This document shows, piece by piece, positions 5,715 through 32,000 of a stretch of 32,000 bases of DNA. Position numbers and translations under genes: made by a program. The notes beneath the pieces were generated by a model that worked only from the letters and a program-made list of their open reading frames with translations, was not told the DNA's origin and ran no database searches. Positions within the stretch are counted from its first letter, which is position 1. Each line of letters starts with the position of its first letter. Origin of the DNA: Planctomycetota bacterium (GTDB lineage: Bacteria > Planctomycetota > Brocadiia > Brocadiales > Scalinduaceae); assembly GCA_022570935.1 (NCBI GenBank), contig JACZYU010000005.1, positions 4,891 through 36,890 on the forward strand, written 5' to 3'.

Positions 5715-7101
5715 CATCGTACACACTTTTTGTTTCACGAGATCGTACACAGATTGTATATTTCCATAAGGGAGGATATACAATGGATAAAAAAAAGTAA
5801 AACAGTTAATGAAGAAATTAATTTACGAGAACTTTGTATTAAGCTATACAATGAAGGTAAAAAACCAACAGAAATCTCCAGGAGCTTACGTCGTACACGA
5901 AATTGGGTCTATAAATGGATAAAACGATATAAGTCAGGAGATCCAAAATGGTATTTAGATGAATCCAAGGAACCAAAGAAGAAGCCGACAAAGGTCGATC
6001 AAGAACTAGAGAACAACATTGTTGATATCCGAAAAAAGTTAGTAAAACGTGACACTCCAGAAACACGATACGCTTTTCATGGAGCAGTCGCAATTCATCA
6101 AGAATTAGATAAATCAGGATATAAAGACAAGCCTAATTTATCAACGATTAACCGTATTATTAAACGAAACGGATTAATTGTAAAAGAGCAAAGGAAAACA
6201 GGTAATAAAGAATCAAAAGTATATTATCCCGGTATATGTACCAGATATCCAGGGCACGTTTACCAACTTGATTTAGTAACACCAAGGTATATTACTGGAT
6301 ATGGGCGAATAGTTTCAGTAAACCGTATTGACGTTTATTCGGCAAAAGCAAACTTAAACCAATACCAATCCAAAGGAGCAGACAGTATTATTAGCTTTGC
6401 CATAGAAGATTGGAGTGAACATGGTATACCACATTACTTGCAATTAGACAATGAAGCGGCTTTTCGTGGTAGCCTGTATCATCCCAGGACATTTGGCAAA
6501 CTGACACGTTTTTGCTTAAACTTTGGTGTAGAATTAATTTTTATTCCATTCAAAGAGCCTTGGCGTAACGGTTATATTGAAAGTTTTAACAGTCGATTCA
6601 ATGAAAACCTCTGGCTCTTTCAGAAATTTACAGATTTAGAGCATTTAAGAAACGAAGCAAAACTATTTAAAGATAAATATAACAACTTTCAAACTTATAA
6701 GAAAAAACACTTTAGCAAACAGTACTTATTTGGATACACAACACGCTATTTCCCAAAGGGATTCAAATTTGATCTTTCAACAGAGTTACCTATTACTAAT
6801 GGTAAAATCCATTTTATAAGACTTGTTAATGAAAAAGGCTATATTAATGTCTTTAATGAAAATTTTTACATTAACAAAGATTTTAGTTTTGAATACGTAT
6901 GGGCAACTATTTTTACTAAAGAACAATTGTTAAGATTCTATTACCAAGCAACAAAAGATTCTAAAGAAGAATTGATAAAAACTGTTGCTTATAAACTCAG
7001 GGAGACTGTAAAAAACAGAATGCCTGTTAAAAAGTTTTGCTAAAGTGTGTACGATGTCATGACACAGCTAGTAGCACTAAGAAGTGTGTACGATGTCATG
7101 A
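5709..7101 (+). mobile_element. Insertion sequence with an rve-type DDE transposase (IS481/IS3-superfamily-like), including flanking TCATGA copies
   Basis: Left end TCATGA-CATCGTACACACT (5709-5727) is the inverted complement of right end AGTGTGTACGATG-TCATGA (7083-7101). The palindromic hexamer TCATGA sits at both junctions (5709-5714 and 7096-7101). Subterminal copies of the end sequence lie at 5735-5752 and 7044-7062. The element carries a single transposase ORF. Confidence 0.85.
5730..7043 (+). CDS. DDE (rve/integrase-core) transposase with an N-terminal HTH
   Basis: 437-aa ORF. The HTH-like segment is KPTEISRSLRRTRNWVYKWIKRY. The candidate catalytic triad lies in YQLDLVTP, LQLDNEAAFRG and PWRNGYIESFN. 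The SD-preceded ATG at 5783 is one nucleotide out of frame across an A8 run (5789-5796), so the true start and intactness are uncertain. Confidence 0.8.
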   Translation: MFHEIVHRLYISIREDIQWIKKSKTVNEEINLRELCIKLYNEGKKPTEISRSLRRTRNWVYKWIKRYKSGDPKWYLDESKEPKKKPTKVDQELENNIVDIRKKLVKRDTPETRYAFHGAVAIHQELDKSGYKDKPNLSTINRIIKRNGLIVKEQRKTGNKESKVYYPGICTRYPGHVYQLDLVTPRYITGYGRIVSVNRIDVYSAKANLNQYQSKGADSIISFAIEDWSEHGIPHYLQLDNEAAFRGSLYHPRTFGKLTRFCLNFGVELIFIPFKEPWRNGYIESFNSRFNENLWLFQKFTDLEHLRNEAKLFKDKYNNFQTYKKKHFSKQYLFGYTTRYFPKGFKFDLSTELPITNGKIHFIRLVNEKGYINVFNENFYINKDFSFEYVWATIFTKEQLLRFYYQATKDSKEELIKTVAYKLRETVKNRMPVKKFC

Positions 7102-14193: not shown

Positions 14194-15633
14194 TTAAAAA
14201 TATGTTGCAACTGAAAATAACAACACGTTATTACTTACCTCAGGAGTTGTTACACGACCAGCCTCCCAATTAATCTGATATTCGGCCTTAAAAACGGTAT
14301 CTTCGGTATACCTGAAGTTAAATCCGGGCGTTAAACGAGTCCTTCTTCTATCACCCGCATTTGGTAGTGGTTGATTTACATTAAGTTCTCCCCATCTTAC
14401 TACGGCCGTAAAAGTAGAGTCATCCGTAAAGAAGGTTGGCGCAAGGTCCTTAAAGGTCTGCGGCATAAAGTGGTATCTTGGTTCTATATAATATCCCCAC
14501 ATATCTCCATTATATAGAGCGCTATTTTCAGTGTCATTGTCAAAAGCCCCTTCTCTTTCTATTGATGCATGCGCATATTCTCCAACCAGTTCAAAAGGGC
14601 CTTTCTGATAAGTCCAGTCAAAAGCCTTAATTGTCAGCCTGTTACTATCATGGTCATCTATATATCCCGTATGTACGGAAACACCTAATTCAAGACCAAG
14701 AAAAGGGCTAAACGCTACACGTCCAACAATTGCCGGGTTGCTATTGTTGTCCGACTTTTGACTTCCCCTTGCACTTCTTATAAAGCTGTCTCCGGCACCT
14801 ACAACTCCACTATCATCTGCAGCCGAAAAACCATTTACCGCATAGATTTCGTAGTCAAGTTTTGACATTTCCGTGGGGTAAAATGTACCAAAGAAACCCA
14901 TTCCTGCTTCGCTGAGGGTTGTAGGTATAATCCTTCTATTTACCATTGGCCTGGCTGTCAGGTCCTGGAGGGGCGAATCGTGGACAAGGTTAAACTTACC
15001 GAGAGGGCTCAATATTATGCCTGCACGGTAATTGATCCAATCAGTTATAAGGAAATCTATTGTTGCAAATTCAATCTTTATCTCGCCTTTACTACCTTGA
15101 ATACCACCTGTGGTTTGAGGTCCTCCATCCTCAATCTCCAACTCCATTGCAAACTTTACCCTATCAGACACATCGGAGTAAATAAACGGGATAAGCCTGT
15201 GCTGACGAAAGAAATTTTCACCATTTTCTGTAAATTGAAGCTCCATGTCCATATATCCGCCTAAATAGGTATTTCTGCCAAACCTGCGTAAAAATGGCTT
15301 TCCATATTGTCTACCAAATACCGGCGCAAGGCCTTTGTCACTAAGCTCCTGGGCTTTTTTAGCCCAGTAAAATTCCTCTCCAGGGAGAAGACCTTTTACA
15401 TCGTCCCTCAGGGACTCAAGTTCCTTAGTGGTTTCTGCCTGTTGTTCGAGTTGTCCTTTCAACTCCATAAGCATTTTCTCCATAGCCGCCACCTTTGCCC
15501 TGAGATCCTCGCCAGCGGCTGATACATTCGAACATACAGTACCAAGAAAAAGGGCAGACAGGCACATAAACATAATAATATACTTCTTCATACATATACT
15601 CCTTTCAAAAAAAGTATTTAAAATTATAATCAT
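14194..15633 (-). CDS. Outer-membrane beta-barrel porin-like protein with an N-terminal coiled coil
   Basis: The likely start is ATG 15591 (MKKYIIMFMCLSALFLGTVCSNVSA signal peptide, GAAAGGAG upstream). A coiled coil (LRAKVAAMEKMLMELKGQLEQQ) is followed by alternating amphipathic beta-strand patterns and a C-terminal aromatic residue (...LLFSVATYF), typical of OM barrels. The resemblance to OprO/P-type porins is only a general impression. Confidence 0.6.
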   Translation of the reverse strand: MIIILNTFFERSICMKKYIIMFMCLSALFLGTVCSNVSAAGEDLRAKVAAMEKMLMELKGQLEQQAETTKELESLRDDVKGLLPGEEFYWAKKAQELSDKGLAPVFGRQYGKPFLRRFGRNTYLGGYMDMELQFTENGENFFRQHRLIPFIYSDVSDRVKFAMELEIEDGGPQTTGGIQGSKGEIKIEFATIDFLITDWINYRAGIILSPLGKFNLVHDSPLQDLTARPMVNRRIIPTTLSEAGMGFFGTFYPTEMSKLDYEIYAVNGFSAADDSGVVGAGDSFIRSARGSQKSDNNSNPAIVGRVAFSPFLGLELGVSVHTGYIDDHDSNRLTIKAFDWTYQKGPFELVGEYAHASIEREGAFDNDTENSALYNGDMWGYYIEPRYHFMPQTFKDLAPTFFTDDSTFTAVVRWGELNVNQPLPNAGDRRRTRLTPGFNFRYTEDTVFKAEYQINWEAGRVTTPEVSNNVLLFSVATYF

Positions 15634-22356: not shown

Positions 22357-23175
22357 TTACTTTTGCTTGCCAGCTTTTTCCTCAACATCTTCCTCTGGTA
22401 GTGCCTGGTGCGTTTCCGACTCTGAAATATCTGCGGGGAGTTCGGGCTTACCGTAAATGGTACGATAGAGACGGTTACTGAGGATCCCCGTTTGTGATGG
22501 AAGGTACAATGATCCCCGTGTATGCGGTCCTGAAACCTGTTCATTGAACTTGTCCAGTCGAACTACAAAACCAGCCGTTACCGCCCTGGCCCTGTCTACC
22601 CCCAATCCCTCGTTCTCTGCAACCTCTAATTTATAGCTCATGGTTTCCTCTGGTATGCCAAGAGGATGCAGCTTTTCCTTACGCATGGAAACACTGACCG
22701 GCTTGTCTAACGGCAAAGTAACAGGCTTACCCATTAAGACCTTCTCCGGTTTTTCGAATGGTGATTCAAGGGTATCTTTCTCAGTCTTTGTTTGCGCAAA
22801 TTCACCGGGAATTACATCTTCAAGTCTTTTGGCCAAGAGTTCATCCGGCAGTTCTGCGTGTGTGCCAATCAGTTTTTTTACCAGTAAATCACCCACAAGG
22901 AGTTCCTTAAAGGTGTATTCCTTATGCTTGTTCCTTTGTAAACTGTAGTTTGCGTAGATAAGCATGACTACTATTATTACGGATAATGCAGTGATAATCT
23001 TGCCCGAAGATTGGGGTATTATTATTTTCAGAATATGAAGAAAGATGACAAATAGAAATGCCGAACAACCGACCTCGATAAGTCCGGCTTGCCATTTTCC
23101 ACTGTAAGTAAGGCCAACAAACACCACCGCCAGCAGAAAAAAAGTGATGCACGTGTATAATATAGCGCTTTTCAA
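22357..23175 (-). CDS. Hypothetical membrane protein (three N-terminal TM helices + soluble C-terminal domain)
   Basis: 272-aa ORF with a TTG start. Hydrophobic segments are ILYTCITFFLLAVVFVGL, LIEVGCSAFLFVIFLHIL and ALSVIIVVMLIYA. No recognisable family. Confidence 0.5.
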   Translation of the reverse strand: MKSAILYTCITFFLLAVVFVGLTYSGKWQAGLIEVGCSAFLFVIFLHILKIIIPQSSGKIITALSVIIVVMLIYANYSLQRNKHKEYTFKELLVGDLLVKKLIGTHAELPDELLAKRLEDVIPGEFAQTKTEKDTLESPFEKPEKVLMGKPVTLPLDKPVSVSMRKEKLHPLGIPEETMSYKLEVAENEGLGVDRARAVTAGFVVRLDKFNEQVSGPHTRGSLYLPSQTGILSNRLYRTIYGKPELPADISESETHQALPEEDVEEKAGKQK

Positions 23176-23612
23176 TTTATTACTTATCTTCCTTCATATT
23201 ATAAAATTTTCCACTTAAGACTATGTCAAAGTCCTGAAAGAGTTGGATAGGTATTCGTAATCCGTTATATTGTATGGATATAATAGCTTTTCAATATTTT
23301 TTCACAAGTGAATTTACTTTCTTTGACAAATTTATAGATGCGTTGTCCCATTTTCTTATGAACAATTGGAGAATTCCATTTACAAGCATACTTTGTCAGA
23401 TATAATAACCAATCATATTTGTATCGGTGATCAACAAGAATATTCAGGATTTCATTCGCAATTTCACCTTAAGACAAATCCGAACCCGAACGAGTCGGAA
23501 TTATAATATTGAGGAATTTAGGGATTAAGGAATTCCCCAATTCTCAGATTCTTAAATTTTTTTACAAAATTGGTCAAAATATTTTTGTTAAAAGATTAAT
23601 AAAAGGAGTGAC

Positions 23613-23864
23613 ATGTCAACAGAAGAGCCGTCAATAGAAGAAAAACTAAAAGAGATAGTTATTAAACAATTTGGGGAAGGCGAGAAAACGGTTACGCTTG
23701 AATCATCTTTTGTAAACGATTTGGGAGCAGACTCACTTGATATAGTAGAACTTGTTATGGAATTAGAAGACGAATTTGATGTGAGTATACCTGACGAAGA
23801 TGCAGAGAAAATGCAAACCGTTGGTGATGCTGTAAAGTATATTAATGAACATACACAAAAATAA
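23613..23864 (+). CDS. acpP: Acyl carrier protein
   Basis: 83-aa ORF with AAAGGAG upstream of the ATG. The phosphopantetheine attachment motif is [21 protein letters not shown]. Confidence 0.9.
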
Positions 23865-24061
23865 TGATACAGAGAAATAGTTGTCCAAACTTCAATCACG
23901 GCCGTGCTAATGTCCCGGTGCGTGCCTGTCCGATGTGTGGTGAGGTGGTAAATGGAGCTATACCAATTAAAAATTGCAGCGAAGAGGAACACGCAAAAAG
24001 ACGGAAAGATAGAAACAAGTATTGTATAGATTGTGGCAAGCAACTTATCGAAGGGATATGA
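23864..24061 (+). CDS. Small zinc-ribbon protein translationally coupled to acpP
   Basis: 65-aa ORF whose ATG shares one base with the acpP TAA (TAATG at 23862-23866). It has two CxxC pairs (CPMC and CIDC) plus two further Cys. Confidence 0.45.
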   Translation: MIQRNSCPNFNHGRANVPVRACPMCGEVVNGAIPIKNCSEEEHAKRRKDRNKYCIDCGKQLIEGI

Positions 24062-24449
24062 CAGTACTATACCGTTTCATTAAAATGTTTACTTTCCTGT
24101 ATATGGTCGCCATCCATCTGGGCGGACGTAAAATCGATGAAACAACGGAGATTTCCCAAAGGAGAATGTGTTTATAGAGACAAGAATAAATACTATTTGA
24201 AGAATTTGCGTATTTTTGATACAATTCTCACTCAATTAGCAGTTGTTTCTATTATATTTGGCAGGGAATTTAAGCTTCAGTATGTTTAAAGACAGGTTTT
24301 TCATTTGCGTGGTAATCTGCAGATAGCCATAAACATACTCATAAATATAACAATCTTATCGAGACTTCTAAAACATGGGGAAAGCTATGACCATTTTTTT
24401 AAGTAGATATAAACATTTTTTGTAAAAGAAAAAGGAGGAGGTTTGAGAT

Positions 24450-25589
24450 ATGAAGGAAAAAATCAGGATAGCTATTGTTGGTGTGGGGAATTGTGCCAGT
24501 TCATTGATTCAGGGAATTGAGTATTATAAGGATAATAATGATATTATTGGCCTGATGAATTATGACCTTGAGGGTTATAAACCAGGTGATATCGAAGTTG
24601 TTGCGGCTTTTGATGTTGACAAAAGGAAAGTCGGGAAAAATGTAAATGAAGCAATATTTGCAAAACCAAATAATACAACGATCTTCGAAAAGGATATTGA
24701 AAATAATGGTACTATTGTCAAGATGGGAAAGATTCTCGATGGCATATCAGACCATATGAAGGTTTTTCCTGAAGATAGAGCATTTATACCTTCTGATGAA
24801 GAGCCTTGTGATGTAGTTAAAGAATTAAGAGATAGCAATACAGAGATATTGTTGAATTACTTACCGGTTGGTTCAGAAGATGCGACAAAATTTTATGCAG
24901 AATGTTGTTTAGAAGCGGGAGTTGCGTTTATAAATAACATACCGGTATTTATAGCATCTGATGAAAAATGGGCGCAAAAATTCAGGGACAAAGGATTGCC
25001 TATTATAGGTGATGACATCAAGGCACAGCTTGGCGCCACAATAACCCATAGAACACTGACAAGGCTTTTTAGAGACCGTGGAGTAAAACTTGACAGGACA
25101 TATCAGTTAAATACAGGTGGAAACACTGATTTTTCCAACATGCTTAATAAAAACCGACTTAGATCTAAAAAAATCTCAAAAACTGAAGCTGTCCAATCTC
25201 AATTAGAAACACCACTTGAAGCAGAAAACATTCATATAGGCCCCAGTGATTATGTGCCCTGGCAAAATGACAATAAGATATGCTTTTTAAGGATGGAAGG
25301 CAGAATGTTTGGGAATGTTCCTATGAATCTAGAATTAAGATTGTCTGTTGAAGATTCACCCAATAGCGCTGGAGTTGCCATAGATGCCGTCAGGTGCTGC
25401 AAACTCGCACTTGACAGGAAGATTAGTGGGCCATTAATTGCCATCTCAGCCTTTACAATGAAACATCCCCCGGTCCAATATGCTGATACTGTGGCAAAGG
25501 AGATGGTAAGGATATTCATCCGTGGACGCGAAAATGGTGAAGAGATTAATAATGTCTTGAATCGTGAGGAAAATGTACCATTGAAGTAG
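24450..25589 (+). CDS. myo-Inositol-1-phosphate (inositol-3-phosphate) synthase, short archaeal/bacterial type
   Basis: 379-aa ORF with a strong SD (AAAGGAGGAG). It has the N-terminal Rossmann motif KIRIAIVGVGNCASSLIQGIEYYK and a conserved core ...NYLPVGSE...GDDIKAQLGATITHR...SKKISKTEAV... Confidence 0.85.
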   Translation: MKEKIRIAIVGVGNCASSLIQGIEYYKDNNDIIGLMNYDLEGYKPGDIEVVAAFDVDKRKVGKNVNEAIFAKPNNTTIFEKDIENNGTIVKMGKILDGISDHMKVFPEDRAFIPSDEEPCDVVKELRDSNTEILLNYLPVGSEDATKFYAECCLEAGVAFINNIPVFIASDEKWAQKFRDKGLPIIGDDIKAQLGATITHRTLTRLFRDRGVKLDRTYQLNTGGNTDFSNMLNKNRLRSKKISKTEAVQSQLETPLEAENIHIGPSDYVPWQNDNKICFLRMEGRMFGNVPMNLELRLSVEDSPNSAGVAIDAVRCCKLALDRKISGPLIAISAFTMKHPPVQYADTVAKEMVRIFIRGRENGEEINNVLNREENVPLK

Positions 25590-25889
25590 TTTCAGGAGGA
25601 TATTAGAACGTCATTTTTACCCGCCATAAAGCACGTCGGGCAAGCACGCTGGTTTTTGTGGCCAGCCAAGTCACATCAGGCAGGCTGAACCATTCGCTTT
25701 GCTTTATTCTTAGTTCTTCAGTATTTGTCAACCTGAGTTGCCGGAAAGTAACTCAGGCTGGCATCATGTCACCGCAAGATAAACTTCTCGAAAAATCTCT
25801 AACGAGTAAGATACACAATTCGTTTGGAGAGTTGTATGTAGTCAAAAAATGTGCAATTCTTAGATCAAATTTATCAAGAGGGAATAGTG

Positions 25890-27947
25890 ATGAAATGTTT
25901 AATCATTGCCGCCGGGCAAGGCACCCGGCTTAAAACAAAAGGTGAAGTTAAGCCGCTGGTTCCGTTGCTTGGTGTGCCGTTGATCGAGCGTGTTATCCGT
26001 ACTGCCATGCAAAGCGGAGTGTGGGAATTTTATGTAGTTACGGGATACCAGGGAGAAAAAGTCGGCAGCTTTTTAAAACAGCTTGCCAAACGCTTAAATA
26101 TCGCTGTCACCATCATCCATAATGAGGATTGGGAAAAAGAAAACGGCGTTTCCGTTTTAAAGGCAAAGGATGCCATGACGGAACCTTTTTTATTATTAAT
26201 GGCAGATCATCTTTTTGATACGGCTATTATCCGGTCATTACAGGAGCAGACGCTTAACGAAGGCGAGGTTCTATTGGCGGTGGATACTGATAAAAACAAT
26301 CCGCTGGTTGATATAGAGGATGTCACCAAGGTTCGTATCAAAAACGGGCACATCCTCAATATCGGTAAAACCATTGACGATTTCAACGGTTTTGATACCG
26401 GTTTTTTTCTTTGTACGCCGGCAATATTTGAAGCGTTGGAACGTGCCTGTAAAATTCACAACGATACGACTTTGTCTGCTGCAATACGGGTTTTAGCAGA
26501 GGACAAACACGCAAAATCAGTACAAACAGAGGGATTCTGGATTGATGTTGATGATGAGAAAGCATTTAAAAAAGCAGAGAAGCTATTGTGTGACAAACTT
26601 ATAAAACCGGCAGATGGTTTTATTTCCCGATATATAAATCGGAAATTTTCTATCAGGATTTTCACGCCACTATTTCTCAAAATATATAGAGGAATCACTC
26701 CTAATCAGGTTTCAATACTGAGCTTTGTTGTAGGACTTGTAAGCAGTTTATATTTCTTTCTGGGCCACGCTGTTATAGGGGCTTTATTAATACAACTATC
26801 AAGTATTTTAGATGGTTGTGACGGTGAAATAGCACGGCTCAAGCATATGCAATCCTCATTTGGGGATTTCCTGGATGCGATTCTTGATCGCTATGCCGAT
26901 AGTTTCATTCTAGCAGGGATTTTCTATTACTCATTAACTGAAATAGGAAGTAAAGAGATATTCGGAATTTATTGCAGCCCTTTATTTATTATTGGTATCT
27001 TTGTATTGGCTATTTTAGGAAATTTGATGGTTAGTTATTCCACTGCAAAGTCAGTAGCTAATTTTGGTTACCGATATACAAGAAAATGGATTGCCGCAGG
27101 AAAAGGCAGAGACTTGAGACTGTTTTTGCTTTTCATTGGTGGAATATTAACATACTTTCATCCGGTTTTTGCATTTCTTGCCTTGTTTATTATAGCCATT
27201 CAGACTAATACAATTGTAGTGTGGAGAACGTTCTTATCGTGGCATTATTTTTTATATAAGGACTCTCTTATAAAAAATAAGGTCAAAGCTGTGATTTTCG
27301 ATTTTGATGGAACAATTGCTAATACAATGCCTTTCTTGACAGAATTGGCTGTAAAACTTATGACAGAGACATATGATATTTCTAAACACGAAGCTGAAAA
27401 AAGATATTTAGAAACTACAGGATTAGCTTTTGAAAATCAGATTGAGTTGATTTTTCCAAATCATCCAAACAACCATGAAGTGGTAACTACATTCGAATCG
27501 AGGAAATTAGAAGGTGTTTTTACTCATCCTATCTTTTCTGAAGTCATACCCACTCTTAAATATTTTAAAAATAAGGGAATTAAAACTTTTATATGCAGCA
27601 GCACAAAACAGGAAATTATAGCAAAATACGCCAGATTAAACAAAATTGATGATTTGGTAGATGGTCTCTTTGGTTATAAATCAGATTTTGGAAAAGGTGA
27701 CCAGATCGATTTCGTTCTTCAACATTATAAATTGCAACCTGATGAAGTGATGTTTATTGGAGATTCTTTAAAAGATTATGATTTTGCAAAGGATAAAAAA
27801 GTAGACTTTATAGGACTTTCCAGAATTTTTGAAAAAATAGAATTCCAGAAAAAAGGGCTATTAAGTGTTAGTTGTTTGACTGATCTAATAAAACTTTTCG
27901 ATCAATCAGAAAAATATTTTGATTCTTTCGAAAAAGTAAAGCTGTGA
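25890..27947 (+). CDS. Three-domain fusion: inositol-1-phosphate cytidylyltransferase-like NTP-transferase + CDP-alcohol phosphotransferase (DIPP-synthase-like) + HAD phosphatase
   Basis: The ORF-track start GTG 25851 is less likely than ATG 25890, which follows GAGGGA. The N-terminal domain reads MKCLIIAAGQGTRL (nucleotidyltransferase G-loop). The multi-TM middle carries an exact CDP-OH-P-transferase motif DGCDGEIAR-x8-G-x3-D-x3-D (26811-26888). The C-terminal HAD fold has motif I FDFDGT (27300-27314) and GDSLKD. Confidence 0.8.
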   Translation: MKCLIIAAGQGTRLKTKGEVKPLVPLLGVPLIERVIRTAMQSGVWEFYVVTGYQGEKVGSFLKQLAKRLNIAVTIIHNEDWEKENGVSVLKAKDAMTEPFLLLMADHLFDTAIIRSLQEQTLNEGEVLLAVDTDKNNPLVDIEDVTKVRIKNGHILNIGKTIDDFNGFDTGFFLCTPAIFEALERACKIHNDTTLSAAIRVLAEDKHAKSVQTEGFWIDVDDEKAFKKAEKLLCDKLIKPADGFISRYINRKFSIRIFTPLFLKIYRGITPNQVSILSFVVGLVSSLYFFLGHAVIGALLIQLSSILDGCDGEIARLKHMQSSFGDFLDAILDRYADSFILAGIFYYSLTEIGSKEIFGIYCSPLFIIGIFVLAILGNLMVSYSTAKSVANFGYRYTRKWIAAGKGRDLRLFLLFIGGILTYFHPVFAFLALFIIAIQTNTIVVWRTFLSWHYFLYKDSLIKNKVKAVIFDFDGTIANTMPFLTELAVKLMTETYDISKHEAEKRYLETTGLAFENQIELIFPNHPNNHEVVTTFESRKLEGVFTHPIFSEVIPTLKYFKNKGIKTFICSSTKQEIIAKYARLNKIDDLVDGLFGYKSDFGKGDQIDFVLQHYKLQPDEVMFIGDSLKDYDFAKDKKVDFIGLSRIFEKIEFQKKGLLSVSCLTDLIKLFDQSEKYFDSFEKVKL

Positions 27948-28804
27948 GCAAAGAATATTTATTGCTGATGAAACAGATTGCCTTCAGGGGAGGGGAAATC
28001 GCCCTCAAACTTATCAGGAAAAGTAGTTTCTCTCTGAAACCGGACAACTCTGTCCTGACAAAGGTGGACACAGAAATATCAGCAATTGCACGAAGCGTCC
28101 TAAAAGATATATTGGCAAAACCAGATCATATATTGATTGATGAGGAAGATATAGAAAACACCAGATATCTTGATCAATCATACCTTGAAGCCACACGTTT
28201 TATCTGGGTATTAGACCCAATTGACGGAACAAGGGCATTTTCGAACCGTATGCCTAATTTTGGTATATCGATAGGTTTACTGAAAGACTTGAAACCCTGG
28301 CTTGGAGTGATCTATTTCCCAATGCTTGGTGAACTATTTTATTCTGAAGGAAAACAATCCATCTTCGTCCAGAATGCTTTCACAAAATCTAAAATAAAAA
28401 CAGTCATCACCCCAATTGACCAGCAGATAACAAGCCAATCCATATTTATCTGCAATGATTCTTTTTCTGAGAAGTTCGATTGGGATTATTCTGATTGCCA
28501 ATTAATGAATCCTGCCTGTGCGGTTTTAGGTTTATGCTGGCCATCTATTGGCCGGGGATGCGGCGCTTTTTTTGGCGCTCATATTTGGGATTTTGCAGGC
28601 TCCTGGCCAATTTTTTTGTCAGCAGATTTGAGTCTTCGTTCATATCAAACTGGCAATGAAATGAGTCAATTAGATATTGGACTATTTTTCGGGAAAAGTA
28701 AAAATCCCTGGAGATTGAGAGAGTGGTACATCCTTTCCTCTGAACGAAACTTCTCATTACTCAGAGAAAAAATAATACCCAAATATCAAAAGCAAGAAGG
28801 TTGA
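27944..28804 (+). CDS. Inositol monophosphatase (IMPase/SuhB) family phosphatase
   Basis: 286-aa ORF whose GTG overlaps the upstream TGA (GTGA 27944-27947). Family motifs are KPDNSVLTKVDTEIS, LIDEED, WVLDPIDGT (28205-28231) and WDFAGS. Confidence 0.8.
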   Translation: MSKEYLLLMKQIAFRGGEIALKLIRKSSFSLKPDNSVLTKVDTEISAIARSVLKDILAKPDHILIDEEDIENTRYLDQSYLEATRFIWVLDPIDGTRAFSNRMPNFGISIGLLKDLKPWLGVIYFPMLGELFYSEGKQSIFVQNAFTKSKIKTVITPIDQQITSQSIFICNDSFSEKFDWDYSDCQLMNPACAVLGLCWPSIGRGCGAFFGAHIWDFAGSWPIFLSADLSLRSYQTGNEMSQLDIGLFFGKSKNPWRLREWYILSSERNFSLLREKIIPKYQKQEG

Positions 28805-28810
28805 GTATAC

Positions 28811-29653
28811 ATGAAAACACCGGAATTTCCCAAAATAATCGCACATCGAGGACATTTGACGGATTCACTTGAAAATTCAGTAGACTCCATTAAGAAAGTT
28901 TTAAAATTTGCGCCTGACTATATAGAAATAGATATTGGAGTTACCAAAGATAATAAAATAATCTTACTTCACGATTCTACTCTGGAGCGAACAACAAATG
29001 GAAGGGGATGGGTCCGGGACAAAACTCTTAAAGAGATCAGGGAATTAAGGTTAAAATATCCTGGAGGGAAAATTACTTCAGAGAGAGTACCTACTTTAGA
29101 AGAGGTATTGGAGATAATGAGTAAACAGAGTACAAATTTGCAAGTAGATGCAAAATATTATGATAGTGATATAATCGTTGAAACAGTGGTTCAAATAATA
29201 AAAAGCAACCATAATATAGAAAAAACTATTATCACCTCAACAAACCTTAATTTTCTTAAAAAAGTCCACAAATTAGACTTAAATGTTCGGCTAGGGTATG
29301 ATCCGCAAGATATGTATGATACTAAATTGATAAACAATTTAAAAAACATGTATAAAACCTATACTGATTTTAGCCCTATAACTTTTGAAGAGATGGGAGA
29401 CGAATTTCTTTCTCATATTATTTTACGGTCTAAAGAAATTAATGCAGAAGCAGTTTGTATTGATTATAAGTTGATATTACAAAGACAAAAAGAACTTAAT
29501 TTGATTGAGAGATTTCATAGAAATGGTATAGAGGTTGACGCCTGGACAGTTAATAAAGAAGATGAAATACAGTTACTGATTAATCTCGGCGTTGATTGGA
29601 TTACAACCGATCGAATTGACTTATTAATACATTTAAGGAAAAAAGTTTCGTAG
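28811..29653 (+). CDS. Glycerophosphodiester phosphodiesterase (GDPD) family protein
   Basis: 280-aa ORF starting 6 nt after the upstream stop. GDPD motifs are IIAHRG...ENS, YIEIDIGVTKDNKIILLHDSTLERTTNGRG and a C-terminal WITTD. Confidence 0.8.
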   Translation: MKTPEFPKIIAHRGHLTDSLENSVDSIKKVLKFAPDYIEIDIGVTKDNKIILLHDSTLERTTNGRGWVRDKTLKEIRELRLKYPGGKITSERVPTLEEVLEIMSKQSTNLQVDAKYYDSDIIVETVVQIIKSNHNIEKTIITSTNLNFLKKVHKLDLNVRLGYDPQDMYDTKLINNLKNMYKTYTDFSPITFEEMGDEFLSHIILRSKEINAEAVCIDYKLILQRQKELNLIERFHRNGIEVDAWTVNKEDEIQLLINLGVDWITTDRIDLLIHLRKKVS

Positions 29654-29709
29654 CACAATACTGATGAATCATATATGTCAGAATTATTGCAGGCAAGGGA
29701 GGAAAATAT

Positions 29710-32000
29710 ATGGTTAGCAAAACTTTCGTCGGTAGAAAAGCTGAGTTAAAAAAACTGGAAGAATATCTCACCGGTGTTCTTCAAAATAAGAAAGGGAATG
29801 TAACATTTATCACAGGTGAAACAGGGAGCGGGAGAACAACACTAGTTGAGAAGTTCCGAGACAATGCATTAGCCAAGGAATATAATATGAGATATGCATA
29901 TACCCGATGTGACGAACGCACGGGCACAGGCAACCCTTACGCTGCATTTGATGCTTTGGTTAGGCAGTTGTTAACTAAGGGGAAAAGTAAAAAATTTGCT
30001 CTCAAATTTATGGAAGATTTAGGAGCAGATTGGCTGTCAGCTATTCCTGCATTTGGAGGTCTTGCGAGTGCGGTGTTGAAAACGGCTGTGTGGGGCAAGA
30101 AAAATGTTACCCCTGAAAATATTGATCAGAGTACGATGTTTCAACGGTATACCAAAATTCTGCAAAACACATCAGAAAAAAATCCCTTATTACTTATTAT
30201 CGACGATTTGCAATGGTGTGATGATTCAAGTTGCGGTTTGCTTTCTCATCTTGCAAGAAATATCGATGAATATCCAATTTTTATTATAGGTATATACCGT
30301 CCATCTGAAATTGAAGCTACATCACATCCAATGAAACAAATTAGAGCAGAAATGGATAGATATAAAATCTGCAATGAACTCCGCTTAGGAAGATTAAGTA
30401 AAGAGGAATTAATTGAATACCTAAACGCCGAATTTCCCAACAACAAGTTTGAAGCTCCGATTATTGATGTTCTTTATGATAAAACTGATGGTCATCCATT
30501 ATTTATTGTAGAAGTAATGAACCTGTTGAAAGAACAAAAAGTAATTATTCACGAAAATAATATTTGGAAACTTAGTCAAAATATTAATGATATTGATATC
30601 CCAACTAGCGTTATTGGGGTTGTCAATAAAAGGATTGAGCTTCTAAAAAATGAAAGTAGACGCATTCTAAGATATGCCTCAATTCAAGGCGAAACATTTA
30701 CATCTATTACCCTTTCAAAACTTCTTGATTGGCAAGAGCTTCCATTACTAGAGGAACTGAATGTTTTAGTAAAAATCCATAAGCTCATAGAAGAGTTGGA
30801 ATCAGAAGACCTAATAAGAAAAAAAGAAGGAGGATATGAATTCATTCATTACTTTGTTCATAAATCATTTTATGATGATTTAGGCAAAAGGGAAAAGGAG
30901 CTTCTACATAAAAAGATAGGAGAGATTTTAGAAGAACTATATAAAGATGATATTTATGAGCTGGCTGTTGATTTAGCAATACATTTTGAAAAGGGGCTGG
31001 TATATGATAAGGCAATAGATTACAGGTTGAAAAGTGCTATAAAAGCGAATGATATTCATAGCTGTACCGAGGCAATAGCGCATTGTAACAAGGCGCTATC
31101 CTTATTAGAAAAAACAAAAGATGAAATCAAAGAAAATATAAAGAAGAAAACAGAACTTCTATTTGAGCTTGGAAGAGGAGAGGAATTTATTGGCGAATGG
31201 GATAAAGCAATTGAGCATTATACAGAAGCGAAGAAACTTGCTGAAAAAACTGACACTGAAATTTACATAAGTGAGGGCTTTCTAAGAATAGGAAGAATCT
31301 TGCGGAAAAGGGGTGAATATAGTGATTCGATCAATAATCTGGAGAAATCTTCAAAAATTAAGGATAAAATCAATGATGGAAGAGGATTGGCAGAGACCTT
31401 GTCAGAATTGGGATATATTTATTCCCGCCAGGGAAAATTTACAGATGCATTTTCGAAACTGCAAGATTGTTTAACGATAAACGAAAAACACAGTGATTAT
31501 ATAGGAATGGCGAGGACGTTAAGGACAATTGCTTTTATTTATCGGAGACAACACAAGTTTCCAGAAGCTCATAAAGAGCTCAGCGCAAGTGCAAAATATT
31601 GTGTTAAGGCAAATAGTGTTCAAGAAAAAGCTGAAACATTAAGAGAAATGGCCATTATTTATGGCGAACAGGGTGATCATGAGAAAGAATTATCAGTTTG
31701 TGATGAGATTTTACAAATAGATGAAAATCTTGGCAATATCATCGGAAAAATCAATACTCTTGAACGCCAGTCATGGGCAAATCGGCTTTTAGGGAACTTA
31801 TCCAAAGCCGTTGCAATTTCTGAAGAACGTTTAGAAATAGCAAAAAAGACCTGTAATCTTCATGAGATAGCGGAAGCGCTGCAAGGCGTTGCGTTACTTT
31901 ATAGAGATATTGGCAAGTGGGAAGAATCGATTGATTATTGTAAAGAGTATATTAAAATCGCTAAAACGCTGGGGGCGGTTCCAAAACATACTATTTACAA
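29710..32000 (+). CDS. STAND-type (AAA_16-like) NTPase with C-terminal TPR array, partial (3' end beyond the window)
   Basis: The frame is open from ATG 29710 (GGGAGGA upstream) to the window end, and is absent from the ORF track because it has no stop in the window. The P-loop is GETGSGRTT (29815-29841). Walker B reads LLLIIDDLQWCDDSS. From about codon 430 on there are repeated TPR-like units (for example AIEHYTEAKKLAEK, LAETLSELGYIYSRQGKF). Confidence 0.8.
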   Translation, partial: MVSKTFVGRKAELKKLEEYLTGVLQNKKGNVTFITGETGSGRTTLVEKFRDNALAKEYNMRYAYTRCDERTGTGNPYAAFDALVRQLLTKGKSKKFALKFMEDLGADWLSAIPAFGGLASAVLKTAVWGKKNVTPENIDQSTMFQRYTKILQNTSEKNPLLLIIDDLQWCDDSSCGLLSHLARNIDEYPIFIIGIYRPSEIEATSHPMKQIRAEMDRYKICNELRLGRLSKEELIEYLNAEFPNNKFEAPIIDVLYDKTDGHPLFIVEVMNLLKEQKVIIHENNIWKLSQNINDIDIPTSVIGVVNKRIELLKNESRRILRYASIQGETFTSITLSKLLDWQELPLLEELNVLVKIHKLIEELESEDLIRKKEGGYEFIHYFVHKSFYDDLGKREKELLHKKIGEILEELYKDDIYELAVDLAIHFEKGLVYDKAIDYRLKSAIKANDIHSCTEAIAHCNKALSLLEKTKDEIKENIKKKTELLFELGRGEEFIGEWDKAIEHYTEAKKLAEKTDTEIYISEGFLRIGRILRKRGEYSDSINNLEKSSKIKDKINDGRGLAETLSELGYIYSRQGKFTDAFSKLQDCLTINEKHSDYIGMARTLRTIAFIYRRQHKFPEAHKELSASAKYCVKANSVQEKAETLREMAIIYGEQGDHEKELSVCDEILQIDENLGNIIGKINTLERQSWANRLLGNLSKAVAISEERLEIAKKTCNLHEIAEALQGVALLYRDIGKWEESIDYCKEYIKIAKTLGAVPKHTIY

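What the first reader, a model, noticed from the sequence alone, without database searches (positions are those of the whole stretch)
24450..29653. Complete CDP-inositol / di-myo-inositol-phosphate-type pathway packed into one operon, with two extra enzymes
Four same-strand genes are tightly packed from the second gene onward. They are inositol-1-P synthase (24450-25589), a cytidylyltransferase + CDP-alcohol phosphotransferase + HAD fusion (25890-27947), an IMPase-family phosphatase whose GTG overlaps the preceding TGA (27944-27947), and a GDPD 6 nt further on (28811-29653). MIPS + CTP:inositol-1-P cytidylyltransferase + DIPP synthase + an IMPase-type phosphatase is the established enzyme set for the thermoprotective solute di-myo-inositol phosphate. 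That solute is known from hyperthermophilic archaea, Thermotogae and Aquificae. Nothing else in this window marks a hyperthermophile, although that cannot be judged from sequence alone. The HAD and GDPD members are not part of the described pathway. The product may therefore be something else: a glycerophospho-inositol-type solute, or an inositol-phosphate head group delivered to a lipid through CDP-inositol.
Basis: partly seen in the sequence, partly recalled or inferred. Interest (0 to 1): 0.75.

Follow-up and report, generated by a model that had tools for sequence, protein, structure and literature searches.

The report
Inositol-phosphodiester operon with three-in-one enzyme
A cold-sediment anammox bacterium carries an operon whose central 685-residue protein fuses the two enzymes that make the heat-protective solute di-myo-inositol phosphate to a phosphatase, probably giving a complete one-protein route to that solute or a close relative, in an enzyme family shared with methane-oxidising archaea.

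Summary
Four same-strand genes encode inositol-1-P synthase, an IPCT + CDP-alcohol-phosphotransferase + HAD fusion, an IMPase-family protein (GTGA overlap) and a GDPD (6-nt spacer).

- **The fusion.** Residues 1-445 match A. fulgidus IPCT/DIPPS in sequence and fold. All catalytic motifs of the three domains are invariant in 41 homologues.
- **HAD is core, not extra.** The tri-domain architecture recurs in well over 100 full-length proteins from sediment bacteria and from ANME-1 archaea. Distant members stand alone.
- **IMPase and GDPD are accessories.** The IMPase gene is cleanly deleted in Ca. Scalindua sediminis. The GDPD is confined to this lineage.
- **A separate module.** The transferase-HAD part has its own history, distinct from the IPCT domain and from ordinary two-domain "IPCT/DIPPS" genes.

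Most likely mechanism, inferred and not shown: I1P + CTP gives CDP-inositol. This is transferred to a phosphorylated soluble acceptor (I1P, possibly glycerol-P). The fused HAD then removes the phosphate, yielding DIP or a related solute.

The main rival is an inositol-lipid head-group pathway, as proposed for Bacteroidetes. DIP-type genes in cold deep-sea microbes are already published. The fused phosphatase variant is not, as far as my searches reach. I rate it a new variant of a known kind, of moderate interest.

The parts
24450..25589 (+). myo-inositol-1-phosphate (inositol-3-phosphate) synthase, short prokaryotic type, 379 aa
   Evidence: PF01658 126 bits. TIGR03450 469 bits over the full model, below the 638 cut-off set for the mycothiol-type equivalog. 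It is 59-73% identical to MIPS genes directly upstream of IPCT/CDP-OH genes in most related loci.
25590..25889 (+). 300-nt intergenic gap between MIPS and the fusion gene, ending in the RBS GAGGGA
   Evidence: Sequence read. No Rfam family matched, and no terminator-like site lies in the gap. The stretch upstream of 25852 has no counterpart in the close relative L001, which lacks MIPS here.
25890..26609 (+). Fusion protein residues 1-240: CTP:inositol-1-phosphate cytidylyltransferase (IPCT) domain
   Evidence: PDB 2xme (A. fulgidus IPCT) E 8e-24; 4jd0 (T. maritima IPCT) E 1e-13. Foldseek TM-score 0.85-0.88 to 2xme chains. The GxGTRL...K signature is conserved in 41 homologues. Its history differs from the rest of the protein.
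26610..27269 (+). Fusion protein residues 241-460: DIPPS-like CDP-alcohol phosphotransferase, one juxtamembrane helix plus six TM helices
   Evidence: The motif D308xxD311G312xxAR316...G325xxxD329xxxD333 is invariant, as are R407-D408-x-R410 and R446. AF2 model pLDDT 91.6, helices spanning 244-459. 4mnd TM-score 0.89, 32% identity. AF2299 98.6 bits, AfDIPPS 85.8 bits, PIPS about 37 bits.
27270..27947 (+). Fusion protein residues 461-685: HAD phosphatase domain with a four-helix C1 cap
   Evidence: HAD_2 75 bits. Invariant residues: motif I D471xD473GT475, motif II S571-T572, motif III K602, motif IV D625...D629. Cap helices at 480-545. It belongs to a HAD subfamily with the signature Y..ETTGLxF..Q..FE..K, which is found next to nucleotidyltransferases and CDP-alcohol transferases in 5 of 5 contexts read.
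27944..28804 (+). IMPase-family phosphatase, 286 aa; its GTG start overlaps the fusion's TGA (GTGA)
   Evidence: PF00459 83 bits. The DPIDGT and WDxAG motifs align with human and Aquifex IMPases. It directly follows the tri-domain gene in L002, L003, L004, L095, L096, L097 and L102. It is removed by a clean 770-nt deletion in L001.
28811..29653 (+). Cytoplasmic glycerophosphodiester phosphodiesterase (GDPD), 280 aa
   Evidence: PF03009 139 bits. PDB 2pz0 E 1.6e-31. Present after the cluster only in the window, L001 and L087; a 102-aa remnant remains in L002; absent from the other tri-domain loci.
29710..32000 (+). STAND-type ATPase (AAA_16) with TPR repeats, running off the window. Possible regulator; not shown to belong to the system.
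   Evidence: AAA_16 78 bits, TPR_12 122 bits. RBS GGGAGG precedes the ATG at 29710. The same order IMPase-GDPD-ATPase occurs in the 99.95%-identical contig L087, where the product is 937 aa.

Best explanation
The operon makes a soluble inositol phosphodiester through CDP-inositol. The solute is most likely di-myo-inositol phosphate, possibly with or instead of a glycerophospho-inositol-type compound. The 685-aa protein would carry out the whole route from inositol-1-phosphate.

1. MIPS turns glucose-6-P into L-myo-inositol-1-P.
2. The IPCT domain makes CDP-inositol from CTP and I1P.
3. The six-helix DIPPS-like domain transfers inositol-phosphate onto a phosphorylated soluble alcohol (I1P).
4. 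The C-terminal HAD domain removes the remaining phosphomonoester, releasing the solute in the cytoplasm.

The translationally coupled IMPase is a second, dispensable phosphatase, acting as a back-up on the intermediate or controlling the I1P/inositol pool. The GDPD, found only in this lineage, would hydrolyse the phosphodiester for turnover.

Shown here: domain identities, catalytic-motif integrity, fold, gene order and its conservation. Inferred: every substrate, the product, and the roles of HAD, IMPase and GDPD.
For: **The first 445 residues are IPCT/DIPPS-like.**
- They align end to end with the IPCT/DIPPS model NF041135 (positions 1-417 of 419) and with A. fulgidus IPCT/DIPPS 4mnd (E 1e-54).
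- The AF2 model (pLDDT 91.6) superposes on 4mnd with TM-score 0.89.

**The transferase looks built for a soluble, phosphorylated acceptor.**
- It has six TM helices and no extra C-terminal helices. PMC4634129 associates this architecture with soluble acceptors.
- It keeps the RDxR motif and a TM6 arginine shared with AfDIPPS. These are of the kind (an RxxR arginine plus a second arginine in the TM4-6 pocket) that binds the phosphate of inositol-phosphate in PIP synthases (PMC4634129).

**The HAD is active and tied to the transferase.**
- All four HAD motifs are invariant, and it has a small-molecule C1 cap.
- HAD presence tracks the transferase subtype, not the IPCT subtype. Against P0002 the domain identities are IPCT 62%, transferase 99%, HAD 94%. 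Against P0008 they are 83%, 63% and 62%.
- Two-domain proteins with 75-84% identical IPCT domains have only 36-39% identical transferase domains and no HAD.

**The tri-domain gene is self-sufficient.** Distant members stand alone. Where MIPS is missing, transporters for soluble compounds lie directly upstream: an organophosphate:Pi antiporter in L095 and L097, and an ABC importer in L081.

**It crosses the bacteria/archaea divide.**
- The transferase-HAD module is 76-79% identical in ANME-1 archaea, including the cloned fosmid GZfos13E1, so this is not a binning artefact.
- A 2.4-kb stretch is 90% identical at the DNA level in a Bacteroidetes MAG.
- A solute pathway transfers freely between hosts with unrelated membrane lipids. 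A lipid-acceptor enzyme would not.

**Precedent from general knowledge.** Synthase-phosphatase fusions with a HAD are recurrent in compatible-solute pathways (trehalose-6-P, mannosyl-3-phosphoglycerate, glucosylglycerol-P).
Against: - No solute or enzyme activity has been measured for any member of this family.
- The protein scores 300 bits against the curated IPCT/DIPPS equivalog, whose cut-off is 580.
- Its transferase domain is only 35-37% identical to AfDIPPS and AF2299. It has its own insertions and substitutions around the acceptor side (TM3-4 hairpin; SYSTAKS in place of SYTxDKY; TM6 QTNxIVxWR). The acceptor may therefore not be I1P.
- The same HAD subfamily occurs in an unfused cluster with the gene content of the Bacteroidetes 'alternative inositol lipid cluster' (L094). 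Bacteroidetes carrying that cluster make inositol sphingolipids (PMC9246714).
- It also occurs beside TagF-like polymerases.
- Two phosphatases in one operon are not explained by a single dephosphorylation step.
- R. marinus uses CDP-inositol for an ether lipid (Jorge et al. 2015, cited in PMC9246714). I could not obtain that enzyme's sequence for comparison.
Confidence: 0.5

Rival explanations
1. Inositol-lipid head-group pathway. CDP-inositol made by the IPCT domain donates inositol-phosphate to a membrane alcohol (diacylglycerol, alkylglycerol, ceramide or a ladderane glycerolipid). This would follow the R. marinus ether-lipid synthase or the pathway proposed for Bacteroides vulgatus and Prevotella. 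The HAD would supply or process the lipid, for example as a phosphatidate-type phosphatase.
For: - The component set MIPS + NTP transferase + CDP-alcohol transferase + HAD is exactly the 'alternative inositol lipid cluster' of PMC9246714. That cluster includes a CDP-alcohol transferase-HAD fusion in P. veroralis, and its carriers make inositol sphingolipids.
- The window's HAD belongs to the same subfamily as the HAD of L094 (36% identity, 129 bits). L094 has that gene content plus an LPG_synthase_TM gene.
- An acyl carrier protein gene lies 585 nt upstream of MIPS.
Against: - The window's transferase domain falls in the DIPPS/AF2299 group. It is separated from the L094-type clade in 199 of 200 NJ bootstraps, with 25% mean identity.
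- It has only six TM helices.
- The HAD has a C1 cap typical of small soluble substrates.
- There is no LPG_synthase_TM gene or other lipid gene in the operon.
- The transferase-HAD module is 76-79% identical between bacteria and ANME-1 archaea, whose lipid acceptors differ in backbone and stereochemistry.
- MIPS-less loci have importers of soluble compounds upstream.
- The ACP is inverted relative to the fusion gene in L001, so it is not a fixed neighbour.
- I could not compare with the real B. vulgatus or R. marinus sequences.
Confidence: 0.22
2. A different soluble phosphodiester. The divergent transferase uses glycerol-3-phosphate (or another organophosphate) as acceptor, or accepts CDP-glycerol as donor. 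The product after the HAD step would be glycerophospho-inositol or a related mixed diester. The GDPD would be its dedicated hydrolase.
For: - A GDPD is co-transcribed in this lineage.
- In L095 and L097 a small TagD/RfaE-II-like cytidylyltransferase and a GlpT/PgtP/UhpC-family organophosphate antiporter sit directly upstream of the tri-domain gene in place of MIPS.
- The transferase has subtype-specific changes on the acceptor side. As a domain it is slightly closer to AF2299 than to AfDIPPS. PMC4634129 links the AF2299 and AfDIPPS structures with CDP-glycerol and CDP-inositol as soluble donors.
- From memory: A. fulgidus DIPPS accepts CDP-glycerol as donor (Rodrigues et al. 2007; not readable here).
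Against: - The GDPD is absent from every tri-domain locus outside the Scalindua lineage and is decayed in L002.
- MIPS, not a glycerol-phosphate enzyme, is the recurrent neighbour.
- The GDPD is a generic cytosolic type with no specificity signal.
Confidence: 0.2
3. The HAD does not act on the product. It would be a pyrophosphatase (PpaX/BT2127-like) that pulls the cytidylyltransferase reaction, or a mutase/phosphatase acting before activation. The IMPase would then be the real terminal phosphatase, as in the classical DIP scheme.
For: - There are weak matches to the HAD pyrophosphatases PpaX (31 bits) and BT2127-type entries (about 24 bits).
- NTP-transferase-HAD fusions without a CDP-alcohol transferase exist (L086).
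- The IMPase gene is translationally coupled to the fusion in several loci.
Against: - HAD presence co-varies with the transferase subtype, not with the IPCT subtype.
- Distant tri-domain genes have no IMPase nearby, and Ca. S. sediminis has deleted it.
- CDP-alcohol-transferase-HAD fusions without an NTP transferase also exist.
- The best structural relatives are phosphoglycolate-phosphatase-like sugar/organophosphate phosphatases.
Confidence: 0.08

Closest known systems
Bifunctional IPCT/DIPPS of Archaeoglobus fulgidus (AF0263, PDB 4MND) and the di-myo-inositol-phosphate pathway of (hyper)thermophiles
   Same: - Same two N-terminal domains in the same order, with the same fold and relative arrangement (TM-score 0.89, 32% identity).
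- Same CDP-alcohol motif and the same RDxR and TM6 arginines.
- MIPS and an IMPase-family gene lie in the neighbourhood.
   Different: - A third, C-terminal HAD phosphatase domain.
- A transferase domain only 35% identical, with its own insertions.
- It falls below the curated equivalog cut-off (300 against 580 bits).
- The host is a cold-sediment anammox bacterium rather than a thermophile.
- A GDPD is attached.
MIPS + two-domain 'IPCT/DIPPS' genes reported in cold deep-sea Thaumarchaeota and Atribacteria (PMC8397731, PMC7265257, PMC10773090, bioRxiv 10.1101/536078)
   Same: - Non-thermophilic marine-sediment or deep-sea hosts.
- MIPS directly upstream.
- Nearly interchangeable IPCT domains (up to 84% identity to the window).
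- Read in those papers as an osmolyte or piezolyte pathway.
   Different: - Those proteins lack the HAD.
- Their transferase domain is of another subtype (36-44% identity to the window's; closer to AF2299).
- At least one Atribacteria-labelled protein is, however, of the tri-domain type.
'Alternative inositol lipid cluster' of Bacteroides vulgatus / Prevotella (Heaver et al. 2022, PMC9246714)
   Same: - Same parts list: MIPS, NTP transferase, CDP-alcohol phosphotransferase, HAD hydrolase.
- Partial fusions are known (transferase-HAD in P. veroralis).
- Function likewise untested.
   Different: - There the genes are mostly separate and come with an LPG_synthase_TM-type gene.
- The proposed product is a lipid.
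- The one cluster of that gene content I could read (L094) has a transferase domain from a different clade (25% identity; 199 of 200 bootstraps).
- It also has a long-type MIPS.
CDP-inositol-dependent ether-lipid synthase of Rhodothermus marinus (Jorge, Borges & Santos 2015, cited in PMC9246714)
   Same: It uses CDP-inositol made by an IPCT homologue as the donor of inositol-phosphate.
   Different: Its acceptor is a dialkylether glycerol and no phosphatase is involved. I could not obtain the sequence, so relatedness is untested.
Fused synthase-phosphatase enzymes of compatible-solute pathways (trehalose-6-P synthase/phosphatase, mannosyl-3-phosphoglycerate synthase/phosphatase, glucosylglycerol-P synthase/phosphatase); from general knowledge
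   Same: The logic is the same: a synthase that makes a phosphorylated intermediate is fused to the HAD-type phosphatase that releases the solute.
   Different: The synthase chemistry is unrelated (glycosyltransferases rather than a membrane CDP-alcohol phosphotransferase). This is an analogy, not homology.

Membership tests
Bifunctional IPCT/DIPPS (NCBIfam NF041135; EC 2.7.7.74 / 2.7.8.34) | N-terminal CTP:inositol-1-P cytidylyltransferase domain homologous to solved IPCTs | tested here: met
   2xme E 8.4e-24 and 4jd0 E 1.3e-13, against about 1e-9 for sugar-1-P nucleotidyltransferases. Foldseek TM-score 0.85-0.88.
Bifunctional IPCT/DIPPS (NCBIfam NF041135; EC 2.7.7.74 / 2.7.8.34) | CDP-alcohol phosphotransferase signature DxxDGxxAR...GxxxDxxxD on a six-TM core fused after the IPCT domain | tested here: met
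   D308, D311, G312, R316, G325, D329 and D333 are invariant and A315 is nearly invariant in 41 homologues. One juxtamembrane helix plus six TM helices in the model. 4mnd TM-score 0.89.
Bifunctional IPCT/DIPPS (NCBIfam NF041135; EC 2.7.7.74 / 2.7.8.34) | Score at or above the curated equivalog cut-off | tested here: not met
   299.7 bits against a cut-off of 580. The model is Thermococcales-specific, and two-domain proteins from mesophilic MAGs also score only 291-306.
Bifunctional IPCT/DIPPS (NCBIfam NF041135; EC 2.7.7.74 / 2.7.8.34) | Acceptor is L-myo-inositol-1-phosphate and product is DIPP | not testable with these tools
   Only indirect evidence. RDxR and the TM6 Arg are shared with AfDIPPS, but subtype-specific changes lie around the acceptor side. 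An enzyme assay is needed.
Bifunctional IPCT/DIPPS (NCBIfam NF041135; EC 2.7.7.74 / 2.7.8.34) | Host is a (hyper)thermophile (the classical distribution) | tested here: not met
   The closest genome locus is Ca. Scalindua sediminis (92%). Source names include Ca. Anammoxibacter. The wider family comes from cold-seep and sediment MAGs.
Bacteroidetes 'alternative inositol lipid cluster' (PMC9246714) | Gene content: MIPS + NTP transferase + CDP-alcohol phosphotransferase + HAD hydrolase | tested here: met
   All four activities are present in the window, three of them fused.
Bacteroidetes 'alternative inositol lipid cluster' (PMC9246714) | Orthology of the transferase and HAD to the B. vulgatus / Prevotella proteins | tested here: inconclusive
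   The true sequences were not obtainable. The proxy L094 shares the HAD subfamily (36% identity), but its transferase lies in another clade (25% identity; 199 of 200 bootstraps). No Bacteroides or Prevotella names appeared among 120 HAD hits.
Bacteroidetes 'alternative inositol lipid cluster' (PMC9246714) | Inositol lipid as product | not testable with these tools
   Needs lipidomics. It is unconfirmed even for the Bacteroidetes cluster.
Phosphatidylinositol-phosphate / archaetidylinositol-phosphate synthases (CDP-lipid donors) | Score above the curated cut-offs and closest similarity to PIPS/AIPS | tested here: not met
   NF045883 65 bits (cut-off 170), NF040950 90 bits (cut-off 180), NF052561 47 bits (cut-off 350). 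PIPS structures give about 37 bits, against 86-99 for AfDIPPS and AF2299.
HAD-superfamily phosphatase (subfamily IA, C1 cap) | Motifs I-IV (DxDxT, S/T, K, DxxxD) and a helical cap inserted after motif I | tested here: met
   D471, D473, T475, S571/T572, K602, D625 and D629 are invariant. Four cap helices at 480-545. PF13419 75 bits.
Inositol monophosphatase family (PF00459) | Family HMM above cut-off and the metal-binding motifs DPxDGT and WDxAxG | tested here: met
   83 bits against a cut-off of 27. DPIDGT and WDFAG align with IMPA1 and Aquifex IMPase. No NCBIfam equivalog cut-off is reached, so substrate specificity is open.
Glycerophosphodiester phosphodiesterase (PF03009) | Family HMM above cut-off over the full TIM-barrel domain | tested here: met
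   139 bits, model positions 1-243 of 244. 2pz0 E 1.6e-31. No signal peptide is evident in the N-terminus MKTPEFPKIIAHRG.

The most novel reading that the evidence does not exclude
The tri-domain enzyme family makes a so far undescribed inositol phosphodiester solute, or DIP used for a purpose other than heat protection, that serves as a pressure, cold or starvation protectant in cold anoxic sediments. In this reading the fused HAD is the long-sought dedicated phosphatase of this class of pathways. The self-contained one-gene pathway also moves freely between bacteria and ANME-1 archaea, with its activation and transfer modules recombining at the domain junction.
Probability: 0.25. Interest if true: 0.7.

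Novelty: new variant of a known kind. Interest (0 to 1): 0.5.

Why it matters
**If the mechanism holds**
- DIP-type solutes would not be markers of hot environments. They would be widespread in cold, high-pressure, energy-starved sediments, in keystone groups such as anammox bacteria, ANME-1, Atribacteria and Chloroflexota.
- The tri-domain protein would be a single-gene handle for testing this. It could be expressed on its own to make the solute from inositol-1-phosphate and CTP.
- The fused HAD names a candidate for the terminal phosphatase step. To my recollection that step has never been firmly assigned in the classical pathway.

**A caution for genome annotation**
- 'IPCT/DIPPS' calls in deep-sea genomes cover at least two transferase subtypes.
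- A third clade holds the more distant separate transferases found near IPCT genes, together with the lipid-type cluster L094.
- None of these reaches the curated cut-off, so published osmolyte inferences rest on untested specificity.

**For enzymology**
- The sharp recombination breakpoints at the IPCT/transferase junction are a clean natural example of module swapping inside a multi-domain enzyme.

Tried and rejected
**Checks that found nothing**
- Regulatory RNA in the 300-nt gap or anywhere else in the window: no Rfam family at gathering threshold.
- Promoter and terminator scans of 23000-30200: counts no higher than in shuffles and no terminator inside the operon, so they do not define the transcription unit.

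**Papers I could not read**
- The primary structural and biochemical papers are not held: Jorge 2015, Sciara 2014, Brito 2011 and Rodrigues 2007. Nogly 2014 did not surface in the search, and no look-up by id was tried.
- Statements about DIPPS substrate range and the T. maritima operon therefore rest on my memory.
- The acceptor-pocket argument rests on Clarke 2015 (PMC4634129).

**Attempts to link the HAD subfamily to named Bacteroides/Prevotella proteins**
- Cluster look-ups and a profile search returned almost only unnamed metagenomic proteins. The gene content of L094 was used as a proxy instead.

**Tests that did not discriminate**
- NF041135 gives about 300 bits to both the two-domain and the tri-domain proteins, so neither can be called the 'truer' DIPPS.
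- Monophyly of the window-type tri-domain clade has weak support (85 of 200 NJ bootstraps). Only its separation from the L094-type clade is robust.

**Ideas considered and set aside**
- GTG 25851 as the start codon: rejected in favour of ATG 25890.
- The ACP as part of the operon: set aside because it is inverted in L001.
- The IMPase-like family as specific to this system: rejected, because members at 54-56% identity stand alone in unrelated contexts.

**Limits of the tools**
It added only about nine tri-domain loci.
I could not check whether the HAD active site faces the transferase cavity.

Full report
**1. The observation**

| Gene | Coordinates | Main evidence |
|---|---|---|
| MIPS | 24450-25589 | PF01658 126 bits; TIGR03450 469 bits, full length |
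| Fusion | 25890-27947 | NTP_transf_3 (3-138), CDP-OH_P_transf (270-430), HAD_2 (468-642) |
| IMPase family | 27944-28804 | PF00459 83 bits |
| GDPD | 28811-29653 | PF03009 139 bits |

- The fusion starts at ATG 25890, which follows a GAGGGA ribosome-binding site. Homologues begin with the same MKCLIIAAG.
- The fusion's TGA overlaps the GTG of the IMPase gene (GTGA, 27944-27947).
- Six bases separate the IMPase stop from the GDPD ATG.
- A 300-nt gap separates MIPS from the fusion. It holds no Rfam match and no terminator-like site.
- A STAND ATPase/TPR gene follows on the same strand from 29710 and runs off the window.

**2. Source organism**

- The closest genome locus is Candidatus Scalindua sediminis, with 92% protein identity for the fusion.
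- Source names for near-identical proteins include Ca. Anammoxibacter.
- A 99.95%-identical metagenome contig carries the same IMPase-GDPD-ATPase order.
- The host is therefore an anammox planctomycete from marine sediment, not a thermophile.
- No other Scalindua species appeared among the 80 loci kept from the species-representative genome scan. This suggests a patchy accessory trait, but the scan's peptide patterns favour close relatives.

**3. The fusion protein**

*IPCT/DIPPS-like part*
- Residues 1-445 align end to end with the curated IPCT/DIPPS model NF041135 (positions 1-417 of 419). The score is 299.7 bits against a cut-off of 580.
- They also align with the A. fulgidus IPCT/DIPPS structure 4mnd (E 1.2e-54).
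- An AlphaFold2 model built on 41 homologues has mean pLDDT 91.6. It superposes on 4mnd with TM-score 0.89 at 32% identity.
- The nucleotidyltransferase part is closest to solved IPCTs (2xme E 8e-24, 4jd0 E 1e-13). Sugar-1-P enzymes score about 1e-9.
- The membrane part has one juxtamembrane helix plus six TM helices (244-459) and no further helices.
- Taken alone, the membrane domain scores 98.6 bits to AF2299, 85.8 to AfDIPPS and about 37 to PIP synthases.

*Conserved residues in 41 tri-domain homologues*
- The CDP-alcohol signature: D308, D311, G312, R316, G325, D329 and D333 are invariant; A315 is nearly so.
- R407-D408-x-R410, and R446 on TM6.
- These arginines are shared with AfDIPPS in a joint alignment, and the RDxR motif also with AF2299.
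- They are of the same kind as the arginine pair of PIP synthases (one within an RxxR motif, the other in the pocket between TM4-6), which binds the phosphate of inositol-phosphate (PMC4634129). Positional equivalence to that pair could not be aligned directly.
- That paper also notes that six-TM members use soluble acceptors, while lipid-acceptor members have three or four more helices.

*HAD part*
- All four catalytic motifs are invariant: D471xD473GT, S571-T572, K602, D625...D629.
- It has a four-helix C1 cap.

**4. How common is the architecture?**

- The first protein search returned more than 100 full-length tri-domain proteins at 49-98% identity.
- Named members come from Chloroflexota, Desulfobacterales, KSB1, WOR-3 and Atribacteria.
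- One cluster at 90% identity or more comes from ANME-1 archaea. It includes the cloned fosmid GZfos13E1, Ca. Methanophagaceae and Ca. Ethanoperedens.
- The HAD is thus not an add-on of this operon. It is the defining feature of a large family.

**5. Neighbourhoods**

Across the loci fetched from genomes and metagenomes:
- **MIPS.** It lies immediately upstream of an IPCT/CDP-alcohol-transferase gene in most cases, whatever the phylum. For tri-domain genes specifically, MIPS is upstream in the window, L002, L004, L100 and L102. It is not upstream in L001, L003, L095 or L097.
- **IMPase-like gene.**
  - It directly follows the tri-domain gene in L002, L003, L004, L095, L096, L097 and L102, often with a 4-nt overlap.
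This is an inference of co-location, not a demonstration.
- **Distant tri-domain genes (51-55% identity).** They stand alone (L081-L084).
- **Ca. S. sediminis.** Its IMPase gene has been removed by a clean 770-nt deletion (window 27957-28727), leaving the fusion next to the GDPD.
- **IMPase-like relatives at 54-56% identity.** They sit in unrelated contexts.
- **GDPD.** It follows the cluster only in the Scalindua-type contigs and is a 102-aa remnant in L002.

The constant element is therefore the tri-domain gene. MIPS is frequent, the IMPase is a subclade accessory, and the GDPD is lineage-specific.

**6. Modularity**

Per-domain identities to the window show separate histories:

| Protein | Source | IPCT | Transferase | HAD |
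|---|---|---|---|---|
| P0002 | Ca. Anammoxibacter | 62% | 99% | 94% |
| P0008 | unnamed | 83% | 63% | 62% |
| P0006 | ANME-1 cluster | 55% | 79% | 76% |

- Two-domain proteins from Desulforhopalus, Methylococcales and Nitrospira MAGs have IPCT domains 64-84% identical to the window's. Their transferase domains are only 36-39% identical, and they have no HAD.
- At the DNA level, a Bacteroidetes MAG (L002) is 90% identical to the window over 26538-28928 only. This covers the transferase, the HAD, the IMPase and the first 118 nt of the GDPD. Its MIPS and IPCT parts are 67-74% identical. The breakpoint therefore lies at the domain junction.
- The HAD travels with, and only with, a particular transferase subtype. 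That subtype is marked by:
  - a 9-10-residue insertion between TM3 and TM4, which forms a hairpin in the model;
  - SY[ST][ST]AKS in place of SYTxDKY;
  - TM6 QTNxIVxWR in place of LMNxENIRR.

**7. The HAD subfamily**

- Stand-alone versions of about 215 aa share a signature beyond the HAD motifs: Y..ETTGLxF..Q, FE..K. They number more than 1,400.
- In all five contexts I could read, they sit beside nucleotidyltransferases and/or CDP-alcohol transferases:
  - L085: TagF-like gene, transferase-HAD fusion, NTP transferase.
  - L086: TagF-like gene, NTP-transferase-HAD fusion.
  - L092: CofC-like nucleotidyltransferase, GT2, HAD.
  - L093: PgpA, CDP-alcohol transferase, HAD, ACP.
  - L094: transferase, HAD, NTP transferase, LPG_synthase_TM, then MIPS.
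- L094 has the gene content that Heaver et al. describe as the 'alternative inositol lipid cluster' of B. vulgatus and Prevotella (PMC9246714).
- In an NJ tree of transferase domains, the L094 type groups with other HAD fusions (P0140, P0143, P0147, P0150) and with the separate transferases of Aminicenantes loci.
- That group is split from the DIPPS/AF2299/two-domain/window group in 199 of 200 bootstraps.
- The window-type clade itself is recovered in only 85 of 200 bootstraps.

**8. Mechanism**

The best-supported reading is a soluble inositol-phosphodiester pathway in which the fused HAD is the terminal phosphatase.
1. MIPS makes I1P.
2. The IPCT domain makes CDP-inositol.
3. The DIPPS-like domain transfers inositol-phosphate to a phosphorylated soluble alcohol.
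4. The HAD removes the remaining phosphate.

Arguments for it:
- the homology and fold of the first two domains;
- the six-TM architecture and the conserved phosphate-binding arginines;
- the active, C1-capped HAD that co-varies with the transferase subtype;
- the self-sufficiency of lone tri-domain genes;
- transporters of soluble compounds directly upstream where MIPS is missing: an organophosphate:Pi antiporter of the PgtP/UhpC/GlpT family in L095 and L097 (TIGR00881 283 bits), and an ABC importer in L081;
- the 76-79% identity of the transferase-HAD module between bacteria and ANME-1 archaea, whose membrane lipids differ in backbone and stereochemistry.

Fusion of a synthase to the HAD phosphatase that releases the solute is a familiar design in compatible-solute pathways (general knowledge).

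The IMPase may back up the HAD or tune the I1P/inositol pool. The GDPD may hydrolyse the diester for turnover. Both roles are guesses.

**9. What remains open**

- The acceptor is not known. The subtype-specific changes sit on the acceptor side.
- The GDPD here, and the small TagD/RfaE-II-like cytidylyltransferase in L095 and L097, hint at glycerol-phosphate chemistry. That would give a glycerophospho-inositol-type product.
- The lipid rival keeps real weight. The same parts list is tied, by correlation, to inositol sphingolipids in Bacteroidetes (PMC9246714). R. marinus uses CDP-inositol for an ether lipid. I could not compare with those sequences.
- Two phosphatases in one operon are not explained by one dephosphorylation.
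- No member of the family has been assayed.

**10. Comparison with the literature**

- MIPS + IPCT/DIPPS genes in non-thermophiles have been reported for deep-sea and hadal Thaumarchaeota and for Atribacteria. They were read as osmolyte or piezolyte synthesis (PMC8397731, PMC7265257, PMC10773090, bioRxiv 10.1101/536078).
- No paper in the library combines 'DIPPS' with 'haloacid dehalogenase'.
- No paper in the library links Scalindua with this inositol pathway.
- The finding is therefore a new variant of a known kind. Interest is moderate, with a testable one-gene handle.

Noticed in passing
L005-L050 (e.g. L040:5825-7093, L041:881-2149, L027:8001-9245): The two-domain 'IPCT/DIPPS' proteins of cold-sediment MAGs include the Thaumarchaeota whose genes are cited in the literature as DIP synthases. 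Their transferase domains score 108-171 bits to AF2299 (whose physiological role I do not know) but only 75-97 bits to the characterised AfDIPPS. They reach about 300 of the 580 bits required by NF041135. Their annotation as DIPP synthases is untested.
   Followed up: partly
window 26538-28928 vs L002:8652-11042: A 2.4-kb stretch (transferase, HAD, IMPase and the 5' end of the GDPD) is 90% identical at the DNA level between this anammox window and a contig binned as Bacteroidetes. The flanking MIPS and IPCT parts are only 67-74% identical. This points to a recent inter-phylum transfer with a breakpoint at the domain junction.
   Followed up: partly
window 27957-28727 vs L001:4856-4858: Ca. Scalindua sediminis has a clean 770-nt deletion that removes nearly the whole IMPase gene. 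It also lacks MIPS upstream, and the ACP region is inverted relative to the fusion gene.
   Followed up: yes
L095:1900-3636 and L097:3341-5104: In two tri-domain loci without MIPS, two other genes sit directly upstream. One is a 138-aa cytidylyltransferase-like protein (RfaE domain II 66 bits, TagD 46 bits). The other is an organophosphate:Pi antiporter of the PgtP/UhpC/GlpT family (283 bits). They suggest an imported organophosphate and a second CDP-alcohol donor.
   Followed up: partly
L085:3-8838 and L086:4801-7428: The same HAD subfamily is fused to a CDP-alcohol transferase or to an NTP transferase next to TagF-like glycerophosphotransferases. In L085 an ABC exporter and a Capsule_synth gene also follow. 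This hints at polyol-phosphate polymer synthesis.
   Followed up: no
window 29710-32000: A STAND-type ATPase (AAA_16) with many TPR repeats starts 56 nt after the GDPD on the same strand and runs off the window. It is 937 aa in the near-identical contig L087. It may be a regulator of the operon or unrelated.
   Followed up: no
window 23613-23864: A stand-alone acyl carrier protein gene (PP-binding, 54 bits) lies 585 nt upstream of MIPS. An ACP also lies two genes after the HAD in L093. There is no evidence that either belongs to the system.
   Followed up: partly
window 1809-3512 and 11563-13245 (both - strand): Two paralogous proteins of about 560 aa combine an FMN_bind domain with an ApbE flavin-transferase domain.
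   Followed up: no
window 5730-7043: A transposase-like ORF (HTH_23 + rve_3 integrase core) sits in the lowest-GC kilobase of the window (GC 0.32 at 6001-7000).
   Followed up: no
window 14194-15633 and 22357-23175 (both - strand): Two sizeable ORFs (479 aa and 272 aa) have no Pfam match at E <= 1e-4.
   Followed up: no
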